Virus genome (UHGV): UHGV-0140603 | Origin: a virus | Strand: one strand, 5' to 3' | Length of the DNA: 39,059 bases | Shown: piece by piece, positions 2,496-35,489 of the stretch | Numbering within the stretch: the stretch's first letter is position 1 | Layout: every line of letters begins with the position of its first letter | Position numbers and translations under genes: made by a program | Notes under the pieces: model-generated | What the model was told of the DNA's origin: nothing | What the model saw: only the letters and a program-made list of their open reading frames with translations | The model's database searches: none

Positions 2496-3121
2496 ACCGC
2501 CAGCACCTTACTGGCAGTGATGTACCGCGCGCGCCGGTCGTCGATGCCGTTCCGGCCACCATTGATAATCAGAGTTACACGTGCAATATCGCCGGTATAC
2601 TTCATGCATCCTTTGCTGGCGAAGAACCACGCCGCGCTACGAGCCGCATATTCGTCCTGCGCCAGCAGTTCAGGGCTCTCCAGCAGGTCAACCTTCAGAC
2701 CGTTTCCGCAATCACGATAGTTATTCAAACCGGTAATCTGGATAAGTCCGCGCCCTCGGTAATTCCAGCCATCACCAGGGGCATTGTTCCCCATGCGTTT
2801 GCTGTATACCAGATTTGCGATCGCGCGCTGGCGCTCAAGTGGCAATGGTGGTTCACCAGCACGGCGCCCCAGTGCATTAGCCTGTCCCTGGGTGAGGCGT
2901 CCAGTCCTGACAAAGCTCGCCAGTCCGGTAACGCTGTAGTTGAAACTCTCCTGCAACCTGGTGAAGCCACCAGACTCATGCCCGACTTGAGCAATAAACA
3001 TTGCCTGATCTTCGGGCTTGCTGATACCAAACTCTTTCATCGCAGAAGTGATATGCGAGAACCAGCGTGCGGCCAGCGCCTCGCTGATACTAGCAGCTCG
3101 CTGGAATTGTTTAATCTCCAT
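2492..3121 (-). CDS. Endolysin, glycoside hydrolase family 19 (chitinase-like)
   Basis: Motifs [22 protein letters not shown] typical of GH19 phage endolysins; ATG at 3121 with gagg RBS; the track ORF extends to 3184. Confidence 0.8.
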
Positions 3122-3419
3122 GTTTAGACCTCGATACTTTGAAAATTTGAACGACGTTACCGCGCGTTTTAATAACCGCAGCAAGCATGACAGCGTTGAT
3201 AATGACCTCAGATAAATCAGCTACCATTGGCGTACGAAACCAGATTGCATAGGCGACGCGAACAGGAATACTTGCCGCAGCAACAATCAGGAAATAAGCA
3301 AGCCACCCACCCCATCTTCGGTGTTGGGATCCGTTACGCCGGAATGTAACAACGCGAACTGCAATGCCAGTACAAATAACTGCATTGGTGATAAGCAAAA
3401 AAAGCTCATGAGTTACCAT
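3111..3419 (-). CDS. Holin or antiholin-like small membrane protein
   Basis: 102 aa, two to three hydrophobic helices, immediately upstream of and overlapping the endolysin start. Confidence 0.5.
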
Positions 3420-3810
3420 CGTCTTTTCTCCCCGGAATTAAGTCGCGTGGATTATCGGAGCGGTGATAGAGCCATATTCCAATACGCACTGCTACAATCG
3501 CTGACACGAATGCGCCAGCAGAGAAGACAACCCCTTTCTCGAAAGAATCCTGCGTAATGGTGGGGATTAGACTGGCTATGCCTATAAGAATTGATGCTGT
3601 TGGTTTGTAAAAGAGAAGACCACAAAGAAAGCTGAGTATCGACAAGAGTACACGACGACGAACAGGATACTCTACAGCAGAGGTAACAAAAATTACCGAA
3701 CCAGAGAGTGAACCCAATGCAACTTCAGGTGGAACACCAGCAAGTACCGATACAAGCGAACACGCACTAAGATATTGATTTAAAGAAAAACTTGTAAATT
3801 GCAATGACAT
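3406..3810 (-). CDS. Holin-like membrane protein, first gene of the lysis cassette
   Basis: Multiple TM segments; track ORF starts with TTG at 3831, ATG at 3810 has a GGTGA SD; overlaps the next lysis gene. Confidence 0.5.
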   Translation of the reverse strand: MSLQFTSFSLNQYLSACSLVSVLAGVPPEVALGSLSGSVIFVTSAVEYPVRRRVLLSILSFLCGLLFYKPTASILIGIASLIPTITQDSFEKGVVFSAGAFVSAIVAVRIGIWLYHRSDNPRDLIPGRKDDGNS

Positions 3811-32421: not shown

Positions 32422-33222
32422 TTACTTGATAAATCCTGCCGCCTTTCCCCGCCTGTATTCCTCCATCAGCCACTGCGCCGGTGTTATTCCCCCAAGGGTG
32501 GCGGCGTTAGGCATACACCCGAAACTTCGCCCTGGTGGATGGTAAACGTCTCTCCCTGTGTCCGGAGGCGTACTCATGGGCTCTGGCTTTGCCTGTATGC
32601 TGATCACCGGATCGGGTATCTGCTGTCCGGAAGCCACCTTTTTCGCCCAATCATCGAGCAGCCTGCGCGCGTGTTTCTCAACCTCACTCTCGCTAAGCTG
32701 GCGCTGATACATTGCACGACGGGTATCACATACGACCCAGTACATAACCGGATGCCGCCACGGGAATCTTTCGGGACCACCAGGATATAAACTTTTTTCC
32801 TTGCTGTACCGGTGAAACTCCGCCATCACATCGTCAATGGTGACGCCAAGAACCATCTTGCTGTCTTTGCACCACTTGATGAATTGCCCTGGCGACGGCC
32901 AGAACGGAGATTCACTGGCGCGGGCGTGGCGCATACCAGCAGAAACCTGTTCACGGGTTCGGATCCCACCTTCGGCAAACGCAGCAATCCACTGCTGTTT
33001 TGCAGCGACTTCCTGCTCTGGCGTCTTCAGGTTGGTTACCACTGCCGCCGGAAACAGTTGTTTCAGCTGTTTGAAAAGGGCATCAACAAGCCTCTCTGCT
33101 GACATGTTCACCACGTTGTCATTGTTGGTGTACTGATGCTCATAACCTGACATGCGAGAAAGGGCTTCTCCGTCACGGTTTTGTATCGCGGTAAAAACGT
33201 TGTTCACAAGAAATCCTCCCAT
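32422..33222 (-). CDS. Replication protein P-like (helicase loader)
   Basis: EQVSAGMRHARASESPFWPSPGQFIKWCKD aligns with lambda P EQVNAGMRVARRQNRPFLPSPGQFVAWCRE. Confidence 0.75.
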   Translation of the reverse strand: MGGFLVNNVFTAIQNRDGEALSRMSGYEHQYTNNDNVVNMSAERLVDALFKQLKQLFPAAVVTNLKTPEQEVAAKQQWIAAFAEGGIRTREQVSAGMRHARASESPFWPSPGQFIKWCKDSKMVLGVTIDDVMAEFHRYSKEKSLYPGGPERFPWRHPVMYWVVCDTRRAMYQRQLSESEVEKHARRLLDDWAKKVASGQQIPDPVISIQAKPEPMSTPPDTGRDVYHPPGRSFGCMPNAATLGGITPAQWLMEEYRRGKAAGFIK

Positions 33223-34019
33223 GCTTCAGGGCTGTTCCAGTGCGGAACGTTGTTATCAGGTAATGTTGATTGCTTCTGTCTGCTAATCTGCAGCCGCCTT
33301 GCCAGCTTCTGCTCCCACTGTGCCTGATGGTATGCCTTACCCTCAGCCATCCAGTAAATTCTGAACTCTGCAAGTTCCTGTGCCGTTGGCAGACTGTCCA
33401 GGTAGATCCCCTGCAATGAGCTTTTCCGAAGAAAGTCATCTGATGGCTGCCATTGTTCATGCATGACAAATTTTCCTAATTGCCCTGGCCCACCAGGAGG
33501 AACAAAGTTATTCATCACGGCGTTGTTTGCTCCGGGGTCATGAGGCACAGAATCCCCGCTTTTTGTCCTGCTCTCCCTCTCTTGGTTAAATGACTGGTTA
33601 TATGACTGGTTCTGGATCCCGTTTTTGGGATCATTCAACATCCCGTTTTTGGGATCATTCAACATCCCGTTTTTGGGTATATTCCCGTTTTCGGGAACAT
33701 TACCGTTTTCGGGTTCATTACGTCCTTCTAGGTTGCCTTTAATGTTCCCTTTTTTGGTTATATTAAGAGAGAAAACCCGCACTCTTTTCGTCGCTCCCTT
33801 TCTCTCTCCGGTATCTGAAATAAGCCCCATTTTCATGAGCGATATAAGCCCGGCCTGCACGGTTTTTTTATTCAGGCAAGTGTCTTTAACGAGGCGTTCT
33901 ATGCTGGGGTAGCAGAGGTTATATTCATCGGCTCTGTCAGCCATCGAGAGCAGTATGAGCTTTAATGACGAGCTACCTGGATCTGTCTCCCAGGCCCAAT
34001 CTGTTGCATGTCTGCTCAT
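33204..34019 (-). CDS. Replication initiator (O-like) with internal iteron-encoded peptide repeats
   Basis: N-terminal HTH-like domain; central ENGNVPENGNIPKNGMLNDPKNGMLNDPKNG repeats; directly upstream of the P-like gene. Confidence 0.6.
   Translation of the reverse strand: MSRHATDWAWETDPGSSSLKLILLSMADRADEYNLCYPSIERLVKDTCLNKKTVQAGLISLMKMGLISDTGERKGATKRVRVFSLNITKKGNIKGNLEGRNEPENGNVPENGNIPKNGMLNDPKNGMLNDPKNGIQNQSYNQSFNQERESRTKSGDSVPHDPGANNAVMNNFVPPGGPGQLGKFVMHEQWQPSDDFLRKSSLQGIYLDSLPTAQELAEFRIYWMAEGKAYHQAQWEQKLARRLQISRQKQSTLPDNNVPHWNSPEAWEDFL
33614..33721. repeat. Origin-like iterons (about five direct repeats with core cccgttttYggg) followed by an AT-rich tract
   Basis: Repeats at ~33614, 33638, 33661, 33683, 33702; AT-rich 33730-33775; inside the initiator gene as in lambda ori. 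Confidence 0.6.
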
Positions 34020-34034
34020 GATTAATCTCCGCTA

Positions 34035-34235
34035 TCAGCTTGAATGTTGTGGGGAGGAATTAATCATGATCTGCTTAATCTCAGCCCTGATGCGACGGTT
34101 TGATTCCATGGTGCACTCAACACAGTGTCCGTTGTAAACCCAGCGTTCACTGTCATGTCCGTGCTTACATGGTTTTCCGGTGTAGTAGCGTTTAAGTCCG
34201 CGCTTTGCGGCATCAATACGTGTAATGATTTCCAT
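34035..34235 (-). CDS. Small Cys/His-rich protein
   Basis: MEIITRIDAAKRGLKRYYTGKPCKHGHDSERWVYNGHCVEC; between the Cro-like and O-like genes; track ORF extends to 34298. Confidence 0.4.
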   Translation of the reverse strand: MEIITRIDAAKRGLKRYYTGKPCKHGHDSERWVYNGHCVECTMESNRRIRAEIKQIMINSSPQHSS

Positions 34236-34315
34236 GGTAAGCCCTGTTATTAGTATTGGGATTACGGTCATTTTGTGCTGACACAAAAAAAAGATCAACC
34301 ATATTTGGTTTTTTA

Positions 34316-35412: not shown

Positions 35413-35489
35413 TTACCTTGCAGGTAATTTTTTCAACTCATATCTATTGACACCAAACCAAATACGCATAATTATTACCTCAACGGTAA
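35413..35489 (+). promoter_or_regulatory. Left operator/promoter: two perfect palindromes flanking a TTGACA -35
   Basis: Sites 35413-35427 and 35475-35489; ttgaca at 35447-35452; A/T-rich -10-like region ~35467-35475. Confidence 0.6.

What the first reader, a model, noticed from the sequence alone, without database searches (positions are those of the whole stretch)
33585..33780. Iteron origin inside the initiator gene, translated as PxNGx peptide repeats
About five direct repeats with core cccgttttYggg and an adjacent AT-rich tract lie within the O-like gene, as for lambda ori. The repeats are in frame and give a low-complexity Asn/Gly/Pro linker between the two initiator domains. Upstream there is also a short direct repeat atgactggtt twice.
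Basis: partly seen in the sequence, partly recalled or inferred. Interest (0 to 1): 0.4.

Follow-up and report, generated by a model that had tools for sequence, protein, structure and literature searches.

The report
Replication origin inside phage initiator gene
A phiV10-like E. coli phage carries five to six repeated protein-binding sites, very probably its replication origin, inside the gene for its own replication initiator, the arrangement known from phages lambda and P22, so this is a clear but ordinary example built on a different initiator protein.

Summary
Five exact copies of CCCRAAAACGG lie at 33616-33715 on the gene's (minus) strand. They are spaced 24, 24, 18 and 18 bp, and there is a degenerate sixth copy at 33745-33760. 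A 12-bp repeat (2.4 copies) lies at 33583-33611. All sit in the disordered linker of a 271-aa protein (33204-34019, minus strand), followed by a lambda-P-type helicase-loader gene.

The protein is not a lambda-O family member. Its N-terminus is a winged-helix HTH_36 domain and its C-terminus is homologous to the ssDNA-binding domain of E. coli DnaT.

Comparative evidence shows the repeats are DNA elements, not merely peptide repeats:
- The same core follows the same N-domain in phages of Proteus, Salmonella, Vibrio, Edwardsiella and Acinetobacter, often in another reading frame.
- The repeat sequence drifts as the N-domain diverges.
- A same-genus phage with a different N-domain has no repeats.
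- Copy number varies from 4 to 8 among near-identical relatives.

The 12-bp GAAYC-type repeats follow the last iteron across the family and in P22 ori, so they probably mark the unwinding region.

Verdict: an iteron origin embedded in its initiator gene, a new member of a known kind. Origin function is inferred, not tested. Interest is modest.

The parts
33204..34019 (-). Initiator gene (271 aa). N-terminal winged-helix HTH_36 domain is aa 1-89 (34019-33753). Disordered linker is aa 90 to about 183 (33752-33471). DnaT-C-terminal-domain-like ssDNA-binding domain is aa 184-252 (33470-33264).
   Evidence: ORF list. Pfam HTH_36 E 1.8e-10 and DnaT E 1.2e-15. PDB DnaT chains 9zbt, 6aep and 4ou6 at E about 1e-20. 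PHROG 1032 'replication initiation protein' E 1e-107. AF2 pLDDT is 86-94 for aa 1-70, 69-80 for aa 71-89, and 30-39 for aa 90-190.
33616..33715 (-). Main iteron array: five 16-bp dyad-symmetric sites at 33700-33715, 33682-33697, 33664-33679, 33640-33655 and 33616-33631, listed 5'->3' in gene sense. Core is CCCRAAAACGG, spacing 18, 18, 24, 24 bp, read as PENG/PENG/PKNG/PKNG/PKNG.
   Evidence: The same core sits at the same position in distant relatives, in other reading frames. Copy number is polymorphic among near-identical relatives.
33745..33760 (-). Outlying, degenerate sixth iteron (AACCAAAAAAGGGAAC), 45 bp upstream of the array in gene sense. Most close relatives have the exact core CCAAAAACGGG here.
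   Evidence: most of the 80 close relatives have a core hit 45 bp before the array.
33583..33611 (-). Second repeat class directly after the last iteron: CAGAACCAGTCATATAACCAGTCATTTAACC (12-bp unit, 2.4 copies; 3.4 in phiV10). Proposed DNA-unwinding or helicase-entry element. GC about 34%.
   Evidence: Equivalent GAAYCnnyCA repeats of 11-13 bp follow the last iteron in 42 of the 47 arrays listed, in several frames, and GAATCAGTCA follows the last iteron of the annotated P22 ori. Function is inferred.
33737..33766 (.). Least stable 30-bp duplex segment of the gene (GC about 27-32%).
   Evidence: dG -32.1 kcal/mol, 98.7th percentile of the window.
32422..33222 (-). Lambda-P-type helicase loader gene. 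Its start overlaps the initiator's stop (GTGA overlap if the phiV10 start is used).
   Evidence: Pfam Phage_lambda_P E 4.5e-57. PHROG 109 'P-like helicase loader' E 1.6e-92. phiV10 annotation.

Best explanation
The segment at about 33580-33760 is the phage's replication origin, embedded in the gene of the initiator that recognises it.

Proposed steps:
1. Dimers of the N-terminal winged-helix domain bind the five to six dyad-symmetric 16-bp iterons and build a nucleoprotein complex like the lambda 'O-some' (inferred from architecture and co-variation).
2. This complex strains and opens the adjoining lower-GC 12-bp-repeat region, on the downstream side in gene sense, as in lambda and P22 (inferred).
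3. The several DnaT-like C-terminal domains, tethered next to it by the disordered linker, hold the single strand and/or dock the P-like loader carrying host DnaB. DnaB is then loaded (inferred from DnaT-CTD homology and from linkage of the C-domain with P).

The same DNA is translated as a tolerant Asn/Gly/Pro-rich linker. That tolerance is why repeat units of 18 and 24 bp can be gained and lost without breaking the protein.
For: 1. Non-random clustering: 5 of 5 genome-wide matches to the core lie within 95 bp, each with dyad symmetry.

2. Selection acts on the DNA, not the peptide. Relatives with 55-63% identical N-domains (Proteus L005, Salmonella L006, L008) carry ACCCAAAAACGGG at the same place but read it as TQKR instead of PKNG. 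Among 57 intact, distinct ORFs from diverse genomes, 39 have at least 2 core copies, and in 26 of those the copies fall in more than one reading frame. Of the adjacent spacings, 32 of 83 are not multiples of 3. Bcep176 has a 22-bp period.

3. The repeats are specific to this location. A 10-mer recurs at least 3 times in the 360 bp after the N-domain in 55 of 62 loci, and at least 4 times in 47 of 62. In control segments the figures are 35 of 303 and 1 of 303.

4. Co-variation and co-inheritance. The repeat sequence drifts with N-domain divergence: CCCAAAAACGG, then CCAACAATGG, GTAGGGAAAA, ACCAGTCGGG and CGCCCCCGAA. Tyrion and a Klebsiella phage keep the C-domain and P gene at about 80% nucleotide identity but have another N-domain and no repeats. 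GF-2 joins this N-domain and its iterons to the lambda-O C-domain.

5. Context. A lambda-P-type loader gene follows immediately, in the early operon downstream of the cI/cro-like region.

6. Precedent. Lambda O, P22 gp18 and phage L gp18 each have their own iterons inside the gene (annotated).

7. The C-domain is about 50% identical to the DnaT CTD and keeps H136, W140, K143, R146 and R151/152. The DnaT CTD forms a filament on ssDNA.

8. The 12-bp repeats follow the last iteron across the family, with GC falling to 0.39 and 0.35 against a locus mean of 0.44.
Against: - No replication, binding or unwinding experiment exists for this element, and no paper mentioning this iteron sequence was found.
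- In this phage the AT-rich element is weak (93rd to 98.7th percentile only).
- There are no DnaA boxes or IHF consensus sites.
- Within this window all copies are in one frame, so the DNA-versus-peptide argument rests on relatives.
- The role of the DnaT-like domain is extrapolated from E. coli DnaT. The family's 12-mers occur with several unrelated C-domains, so they are not specific to the DnaT-like domain.
- Cumulative GC skew does not mark the site (minimum at 35484), although skew in a 39-kb phage mostly follows transcription direction.
Confidence: 0.8

Rival explanations
1. The repeats matter only at the protein level. They would be a slippage-prone, low-complexity flexible linker, with DNA repetition as a by-product of recent duplication, and the origin would lie elsewhere.
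For: All copies in this window are in frame, with spacings of 18, 24 and 45 bp. The encoded segment is predicted to be disordered. Copy number changes by whole 18- or 24-bp units in close relatives.
Against: The same DNA core is kept in relatives in different reading frames, giving unrelated peptides (PKNG versus TQKR). It occurs in more than one frame within single intact ORFs in 26 of 39 cases, with periods of 17, 22 and 25 bp. Each unit is dyad-symmetric, which a peptide constraint does not require.
Confidence: 0.05
2. The repeats are genuine binding sites of the initiator's N-domain, but they serve mainly for autoregulation, copy-number control or exclusion of related phages (as with titration or handcuffing at plasmid iterons). 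Initiation would occur at another site.
For: In iteron plasmids and V. cholerae chromosome 2, initiator sites also have control functions (abstracts listed; review). The AT-rich element here is weak.
Against: No other copy of the core exists in the genome. The layout is iterons, then short repeats and a lower-GC tract, on the side where lambda and P22 open, and the last-iteron junction motif GAATCAGTCA is shared with the annotated P22 ori. The initiator, iterons and loader travel together as a module.
Confidence: 0.08
3. The repeats are targets of a different factor (host protein, repressor, or a recombination or packaging function), or simply a mosaic recombination joint between the N- and C-domain modules.
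For: Module exchange happens around this region: Tyrion and GF-2 are chimeras. Three GATC sites cluster in the array.
Against: The repeat sequence tracks the N-domain, not the host or the C-domain. No DnaA or IHF consensus is present. The repeats are absent when the N-domain is replaced.
Confidence: 0.04

Closest known systems
ori-lambda with the lambda O / P replication module
   Same: Iterons of 16-19 bp with internal dyad symmetry and a central A-tract (lambda ATCCCTCAAAACGAGGGAT; here ATCCCAAAAACGGGAT). They lie inside the initiator gene, between its DNA-binding N-domain and its C-domain. The lower-GC region is on the downstream side. A P-family helicase-loader gene follows immediately.
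   Different: The N-domain is Pfam HTH_36, not Phage_rep_O, and hhalign gave 3% probability. The half-sites are 3 bp closer together. The C-domain is DnaT-CTD-like instead of Phg_2220_C. The AT-rich tract is far weaker and consists of 12-bp repeats. There are 5-6 sites (4-8 in relatives) instead of 4.
Phage P22 ori inside gene 18 (gp18 initiator, gp12 DnaB-type helicase); also phage L gene 18
   Same: The annotated origin lies within the initiator gene, with its own family of about four iterons. GAATCAGTCA directly follows the last iteron, the same motif as the window's 12-bp unit.
   Different: gp18 is in the Phage_rep_O family. The iteron sequence is TCGGTAAAAC. A lambda-like AT-rich tract follows. 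The partner is a helicase, not a P-type loader. Some relatives of the window's N-domain (L008, AB1) do pair with DnaB-type helicases.
DopC/DopE of Cellvibrionales and Oceanospirillales (Brezellec et al. 2017, PMC5509034)
   Same: The two-gene architecture is identical: HTH_36 plus DnaT-C-terminal motif protein, followed by a lambda-P-like protein.
   Different: DopCE are chromosomal, apparently domesticated genes. The authors found no iterons in dopC and concluded it is no longer an origin. The window's pair is phage-borne and retains the iterons.
E. coli DnaT (primosomal protein I)
   Same: The C-terminal roughly 85 residues are about 50% identical to the DnaT CTD and keep the proposed ssDNA-binding residues H, W, K, R, R. 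Databases therefore name this protein 'primosomal protein I' or 'DnaT'.
   Different: The DnaT N-terminal domain and its PriB-binding linker are absent. In their place are an iteron-binding winged helix and a repeat-encoded linker. The phage protein is an origin-specific initiator, not a restart factor, so the database name misleads.
Iteron plasmids and V. cholerae chromosome 2 (RepE, TrfA, RctB), with DUE repeats bound as ssDNA
   Same: An array of initiator-binding direct repeats lies next to a set of short (about 12-13 bp) repeats in the unwinding element. The RctB ssDNA motif (G/A)ATCA resembles the ATCA/GTCA recurring every 12 nt here.
   Different: The initiator shows no Rep_3-type WH1-WH2 match. 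The origin is inside the coding sequence. There are no DnaA boxes. ssDNA binding to the 12-mers is untested.

Membership tests
Lambda-type 'origin inside the initiator gene' (ori-lambda, P22 ori) | Array of at least 3-4 direct repeats of about 16-20 bp with internal dyad symmetry | tested here: met
   Five exact cores plus one degenerate copy, forming 16-bp dyad sites.
Lambda-type 'origin inside the initiator gene' (ori-lambda, P22 ori) | Repeats lie within the initiator ORF, between the DNA-binding N-domain and the C-domain, and are translated as a linker | tested here: met
   The cores fall at aa 88-134, between HTH_36 (aa 18-67) and the DnaT domain (aa 184-252). The linker has pLDDT 30-39.
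Lambda-type 'origin inside the initiator gene' (ori-lambda, P22 ori) | AT-rich unwinding region flanking the iterons on the downstream side in gene sense | tested here: inconclusive
   The 12-mer region has about 34% GC and sits at the 93rd percentile of instability. The least stable segment is on the other side. The family average does dip downstream, to 0.39 and 0.35 against 0.44.
Lambda-type 'origin inside the initiator gene' (ori-lambda, P22 ori) | Helicase loader or helicase gene immediately downstream in the same operon | tested here: met
   Phage_lambda_P E 4.5e-57, with overlapping start and stop.
Lambda-type 'origin inside the initiator gene' (ori-lambda, P22 ori) | Initiator binds the repeats, and the segment supports initiator-dependent replication | not testable with these tools
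   Only comparative inference is available: co-variation, co-inheritance and frame independence.
Lambda O protein family (Pfam Phage_rep_O + Phg_2220_C) | N-terminal Phage_rep_O domain | tested here: not met
   Pfam gives HTH_36 only. Lambda O and P22 gp18 hit Phage_rep_O at E about 1e-36 to 1e-38. hhalign against lambda O gave 3% probability. HHpred-level relatedness is reported by others.
Lambda O protein family (Pfam Phage_rep_O + Phg_2220_C) | C-terminal lambda-O-type domain (Phg_2220_C) | tested here: not met
   The C-domain is DnaT-like. Only 2 of 131 N-domain relatives carry Phg_2220_C.
DnaT / primosomal protein I | C-terminal three-helix ssDNA-binding domain | tested here: met
   Pfam DnaT E 1.2e-15. 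PDB 9zbt, 6aep and 4ou6 at E about 1e-20. Five of six proposed DNA-binding residues are kept.
DnaT / primosomal protein I | DnaT N-terminal oligomerisation domain and PriB-docking linker | tested here: not met
   PDB alignments cover only DnaT residues 85-170. The query's N-terminus is HTH_36.
DopC/DopE-type pair | HTH_36 + DnaT_C protein followed by a P-like protein | tested here: met
DopC/DopE-type pair | Chromosomal, domesticated, lacking iterons | tested here: not met
   The window is a phiV10-like phage genome and carries iterons.
Iteron-plasmid Rep initiators (Rep_3 / RepE / TrfA type) | Tandem winged-helix (WH1-WH2) Rep fold | tested here: not met
   No Rep_3 hit in Pfam. There is a single wHTH domain of 89 aa, and Foldseek returned only generic wHTH matches with E at or above 0.004.

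The most novel reading that the evidence does not exclude
The two-tier layout is iterons followed directly by 2-4 phased GAAYCnnTCA repeats of about 12 bp. It is conserved across hundreds of HTH_36-type phage initiator genes from Burkholderia to Vibrio, and its junction motif is shared with P22 ori, which uses an unrelated initiator family. This could define a previously undescribed sequence-specific unwinding or helicase-entry element of phage origins, read as single-stranded DNA in the way RctB or RepE read their DUE repeats. In the DnaT-CTD subfamily, the initiator would then be a compact DnaA-like 'bind duplex, then filament on ssDNA' machine, and the living phage ancestor of the bacterial DopC/DopE helicase-loading pair.
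Probability: 0.2. Interest if true: 0.6.

Novelty: new member of a known kind. Interest (0 to 1): 0.33.

Why it matters
- It locates the probable origin of phiV10/Uetakevirus-type phages and of a prophage module present in 424 of 5426 complete E. coli genomes. There the gene is annotated only as 'DnaT-like' or 'primosomal protein' and no origin is marked.
- It corrects a misleading functional name.
- It explains why this gene is so often truncated or varies in length in assemblies.
- It offers a tractable system for asking what a DnaT C-terminal domain does when fused to an origin-binding domain.
- It offers a possible phage counterpart to the bacterial DopC/DopE pair, one that still has its iterons.

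None of this overturns current understanding. It extends the lambda/P22 paradigm to another initiator family.

Tried and rejected
- Homology of the N-domain to lambda O: hhalign of a 10-sequence profile against lambda O gave 3% probability, and BLASTP against P22 gp18 gave E 0.17. I therefore do not claim O-family membership.
- DnaA boxes and IHF consensus sites in 33300-34100: none found.
- Single-strand DNA folding of 33570-33770: z = -1.4, not significant. The 'terminator-like' hits at 33626 and 33650 are artefacts of neighbouring iteron arms.
- Cumulative GC skew: the minimum, at 35484, reflects the divergent immunity region rather than the origin.
- Foldseek of the AF2 model against the PDB: only generic winged-helix regulators and plasmid Rep N-domains, with E at or above 0.004. 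The C-domain was poorly modelled because the alignment was shallow, so its fold assignment rests on sequence homology to solved DnaT structures.
- Literature: searches for the iteron sequence and for phiV10/epsilon15 origins found nothing relevant.
- Repeats in the Tyrion and Klebsiella-phage initiator genes (different N-domain): none found. This is used as a negative control, not as a lead.
- First protein search with the 99-aa N-domain: it returned mostly truncated proteins. These proved useful only because their tails revealed the alternative reading frames.

Full report
**What is there**

The window is a phiV10/Uetakevirus-type temperate podophage genome. The replication region is 98-99% identical to vB_EcoP_PAS61 and phiV10.

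The finding lies inside the minus-strand ORF 33204-34019 (271 aa). On the gene's sense strand, five copies of CCCRAAAACGG sit at 33700-33715, 33682-33697, 33664-33679, 33640-33655 and 33616-33631. They are spaced 18, 18, 24 and 24 bp. A degenerate sixth copy lies 45 bp upstream at 33745-33760.

Allowing one mismatch, the core occurs five times in the whole 39-kb window. All five are exact, on one strand, and within 95 bp, against about 1.3 scattered matches expected by chance.

Each site is a 16-bp dyad (ATCCC-AAAAAC-GGGAT or TTCCCG-AAAA-CGGGAA). This recalls the lambda iterons ATCCCTCAAAACGAGGGAT, with the arms 3 bp closer together.

Directly after the last iteron comes CAGAACCAGTCATATAACCAGTCATTTAACC, a 12-bp unit repeated 2.4 times (33583-33611).

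All spacings are multiples of three, and the array is read as NEPENGNVPENGNIPKNGMLNDPKNGMLNDPKNGIQNQSYNQSFNQ. Only the 'AT-rich tract' is weak. The least stable 30-mer is 33737-33766 (98.7th percentile of the genome), and the 12-mer region is at the 93rd percentile.

**What the gene is**

- **N-terminus.** Pfam finds HTH_36 at aa 18-67. AlphaFold models aa 1-89 confidently as a winged helix (pLDDT 86-94 over aa 1-70, 69-80 over aa 71-89). It leaves aa 90-190 without structure (pLDDT 30-39), and that stretch is exactly the repeat-encoded region. Foldseek finds only generic winged-helix proteins.
- **C-terminus.** Pfam finds the DnaT DNA-binding domain at aa 184-252. This domain is about 50% identical to solved E. 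coli-type DnaT C-terminal domains (E about 1e-20). It keeps the residues H, W, K, R, R proposed to contact ssDNA, with one change, H137 to Q.
- **Family.** PHROGs calls the protein a replication initiation protein (phrog_1032, E 1e-107).
- **Downstream gene.** The next gene (32422-33222) is a lambda-P-type helicase loader (Pfam E 4.5e-57) whose start overlaps the initiator's stop.
- **Not an O-family member.** Lambda O and P22 gp18 are Pfam Phage_rep_O. This protein is not, and a profile comparison with lambda O gave 3% probability. 'O-like' is therefore an analogy, not family membership.

**Are the repeats DNA elements or just peptide repeats?**

Within this window one cannot tell, because every copy is in frame. 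Relatives settle the question.

1. **Other reading frames.** N-domain relatives at 55-63% identity from Proteus, Salmonella and an unassigned contig carry ACCCAAAAACGGG at the same position with 24-bp spacing. They translate it as xTQKR rather than PKNG.
2. **Frames within single ORFs.** In 57 intact, distinct ORFs fetched from diverse genomes (41-87% N-domain identity), 39 have at least two core copies. In 26 of those 39 the copies occupy more than one reading frame. Of the adjacent spacings, 32 of 83 are not multiples of three (17, 22 and 25 bp are common). Burkholderia phage Bcep176 has a 22-bp period, and L118 has 11 copies in frames 1,0,1,0,2... within a 350-aa ORF.
3. **Specific to this location.** A 10-mer recurs at least four times in the 360 bp after the N-domain in 47 of 62 loci, against 1 of 303 control segments of the same loci.
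4. **Co-variation with the N-domain.** The repeat sequence drifts as the N-domain diverges: CCCAAAAACGG, then CCAACAATGG in Acinetobacter, then GTAGGGAAAA, ACCAGTCGGG and CGCCCCCGAA in more distant lineages.
5. **Co-inheritance with the N-domain.** Enterobacter phage Tyrion (same genus) and a Klebsiella phage share the C-domain and the P gene at about 80% nucleotide identity. They have an unrelated N-domain and no direct repeats in the gene. Conversely, Edwardsiella phage GF-2 joins this N-domain and its iterons to the lambda-O C-terminal domain.
6. **C-domain diversity.** Of 131 cluster representatives with this N-domain, all are HTH_36. Eighteen carry a DnaT domain, two carry Phg_2220_C, and the rest have other C-domains.

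This is the classical signature of an initiator with its cognate iterons, exchanged as a unit.

**Copy-number variation**

Among 80 IMG/VR contigs with a 99-100% identical N-domain, the main array has 4 copies (at least 10 loci), 5 (about 59), 6 (7) or 8 (1). Both the 18-bp and the 24-bp units vary. phiV10 itself has an extra 12-bp unit, and the BP9 record has one 24-bp unit fewer. Full-length database proteins fall into length classes of 279, 285, 287, 291, 292 and 311 aa, alongside this window's 271.

**The second repeat class and the unwinding side**

In 42 of the 47 arrays listed, 2-4 copies of an 11-13-bp unit of the form (C/T)AGAAYCnnyCA follow the last iteron directly. Examples are GAACCAGTCAT, GAATCTACCAA and GAACCTATCAAT. 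The other five arrays (L100, L122, L124, L140, L152) are not followed directly by such a unit, although in three of them it appears further downstream. An A-rich run often follows these repeats. Mean GC falls to 0.39 and 0.35 in the first two 40-bp bins downstream, against 0.44 for the loci and 0.43-0.45 upstream.

The unit falls in different frames in GF-2 and Bcep176, so it too is a DNA feature. It persists where the iteron sequence has changed and with every kind of C-domain.

The annotated P22 origin, inside gene 18 of a Phage_rep_O initiator, has GAATCAGTCA directly after its last iteron, followed by the lambda-like AT-rich tract. I therefore place the probable unwinding or helicase-entry region of this phage at 33583-33611 and just beyond. 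That is the same side as in lambda, not the AT-richer patch at 33737-33766. This step is inferred.

Reviews note that DUE repeats of RK2, F and V. cholerae chromosome 2 are bound sequence-specifically as ssDNA by their initiators. The RctB motif is (G/A)ATCA. The ATCA/GTCA recurring every 12 nt here is a lead, not a test.

**Proposed mechanism**

1. Dimers of the winged-helix N-domain occupy the five to six dyad iterons.
2. The complex strains and opens the adjacent 12-mer region.
3. The flexible linker, encoded by the origin itself, tethers several DnaT-like C-domains beside the opened DNA.
4. The E. coli DnaT C-terminal domain forms a helical filament on ssDNA, binding two nucleotides per interface. 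Its authors stress the parallel with DnaA. The phage domain could therefore hold the opened strand and/or dock the P-DnaB complex.

Linkage of the C-domain with P is supported in three ways:
- They are co-inherited in Tyrion and the Klebsiella phage.
- The two genes overlap.
- A PHROG family of 482 aa matches both the DnaT-like and the P segments.

The sequence and its conservation are shown directly. Binding, opening, ssDNA capture and loader recruitment are all inferred.

**Rivals**

- **Peptide-only explanation.** This is contradicted by the frame-independent conservation.
- **Binding sites for control, with the origin elsewhere.** This cannot be excluded without experiments, but three points weigh against it. 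There is no other copy of the core in the genome. The layout matches lambda and P22. The module is inherited as a unit.
- **Binding by another factor.** This is unlikely, because the repeats track the N-domain and disappear with it. No DnaA or IHF consensus is present.

**Comparison with what is known, and novelty**

Origins inside initiator genes are textbook for lambda. [quoted passage not shown]

The domain pair HTH_36 + DnaT_C followed by a P-like protein was described as DopC/DopE, a chromosomal pair thought to be domesticated from lambdoid phages, in which no iterons could be found. The window carries a phage-borne version of that architecture with its iterons intact.

I found no paper describing this iteron sequence or an origin for phiV10/epsilon15-type phages. 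Records annotate the gene as 'primosomal protein I', 'DnaT' or 'DnaT-like ssDNA-binding domain-containing protein', with no origin feature. The gene occurs in 424 of 5426 complete E. coli genomes. The N-domain family comprises 547 50%-identity clusters at E <= 1e-10.

This is a new member of a known kind. The family-wide post-iteron 12-mers and the DnaT-domain fusion are the parts that might repay experiments.

**Limits**

- No experiment backs origin function.
- The AF2 model of the C-domain is poor.
- The homology of HTH_36 and Phage_rep_O N-domains is reported by others but was not reproduced here.
- The identity of the unwinding element in this particular phage is uncertain.

Noticed in passing
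L163 (P22 NC_002371 32488-33303) nt 353-497, compared with window 33583-33611: The annotated P22 origin inside gene 18 has GAATCAGTCA directly after its last iteron. This is the same motif as the 12-bp unit that follows the iterons in the window and across the HTH_36 family, even though P22 gp18 belongs to a different initiator family (Phage_rep_O). It could be a shared unwinding or helicase-entry element, or a trace of recombination between origin types.
   Followed up: partly
P0001, P0002, P0010, P0022, P0026, P0030; L005 3001-3670; L008 3001-3763: Many database versions of this gene are truncated or frameshifted inside or just before the repeat tract. In L005 (Proteus) the N-domain and the rest are in different frames. 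In L008 (six contigs) the N-domain ORF stops in the first iteron, and a second ORF starting at TTG continues in the PKNG frame. It is unclear whether these are assembly or sequencing errors at repeats, pseudogenes, or a real two-protein or frameshifting arrangement.
   Followed up: no
L003 (Tyrion) 2779-3546; L004 (Klebsiella phage) 2805-3572; window 33204 to about 33500: Tyrion and Klebsiella phage ST512-KPC3phi13.3 share the DnaT-like C-domain, the C-terminal tail VPHWNSPEAWEDFL and the P gene with the window at about 80% nucleotide identity. They have an unrelated N-terminal domain (phrog_1408) and no iterons. The recombination joint lies just upstream of GKF(V/T)MHE(Q/N)WQPS. Where those phages initiate replication is unknown.
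   Followed up: partly
L002 (PP488543.1 'Escherichia phage BP9', 134-138 kb of a 138-kb Vequintavirus record); also PP350014.1 'phage PH444' (115 kb): A phiV10-type repressor and replication module at 97-98% identity sits at the end of a record classified as a large virulent Vequintavirus, and in an unannotated 115-kb record. These look like chimeric assemblies or contamination with a Uetakevirus prophage rather than genuine gene content.
   Followed up: no
window 33615-33656: Three GATC (Dam) sites lie within 38 bp, two of them inside iterons (GGGATCATT). This is the second-densest GATC triplet in the genome. GF-2 and L008 iterons also contain GATC, whereas Proteus, Vibrio and Acinetobacter versions do not. 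Methylation or SeqA control of the origin is possible.
   Followed up: partly
C-terminal tails of N-domain relatives and lambda O: Initiators with quite different C-domains end in a similar acidic/aromatic tail: D(L/I)(D/E/T/N)(D/N)T(S/D/N)W (for example IDLDNTDWAGDL, DLDDTSWGDDF, and lambda LDLTNTDWIYGVDL). The window's tail, HWNSPEAWEDFL, is a variant shared with Tyrion and Proteus phages that also encode P-like loaders. This may be a short loader-docking peptide.
   Followed up: no
phrog_15931, matched by window 33264-33479 and 32600-32900: One PHROG family of 482 aa matches both the DnaT-like domain of the initiator (profile positions 200-268) and the P-like loader (profile positions 354-452). 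Natural fusions of the two therefore seem to exist, which supports a physical partnership.
   Followed up: no
window 34035-34298 (-): The small ORF between the cro-like gene's terminator and the initiator encodes a Cys/His-rich protein (CKHGH...CVEC; phrog_1081, function unknown, faint endonuclease VII-like hit). It is conserved in phiV10 and epsilon15 (p42/p40). Its role in the replication operon is unknown.
   Followed up: no
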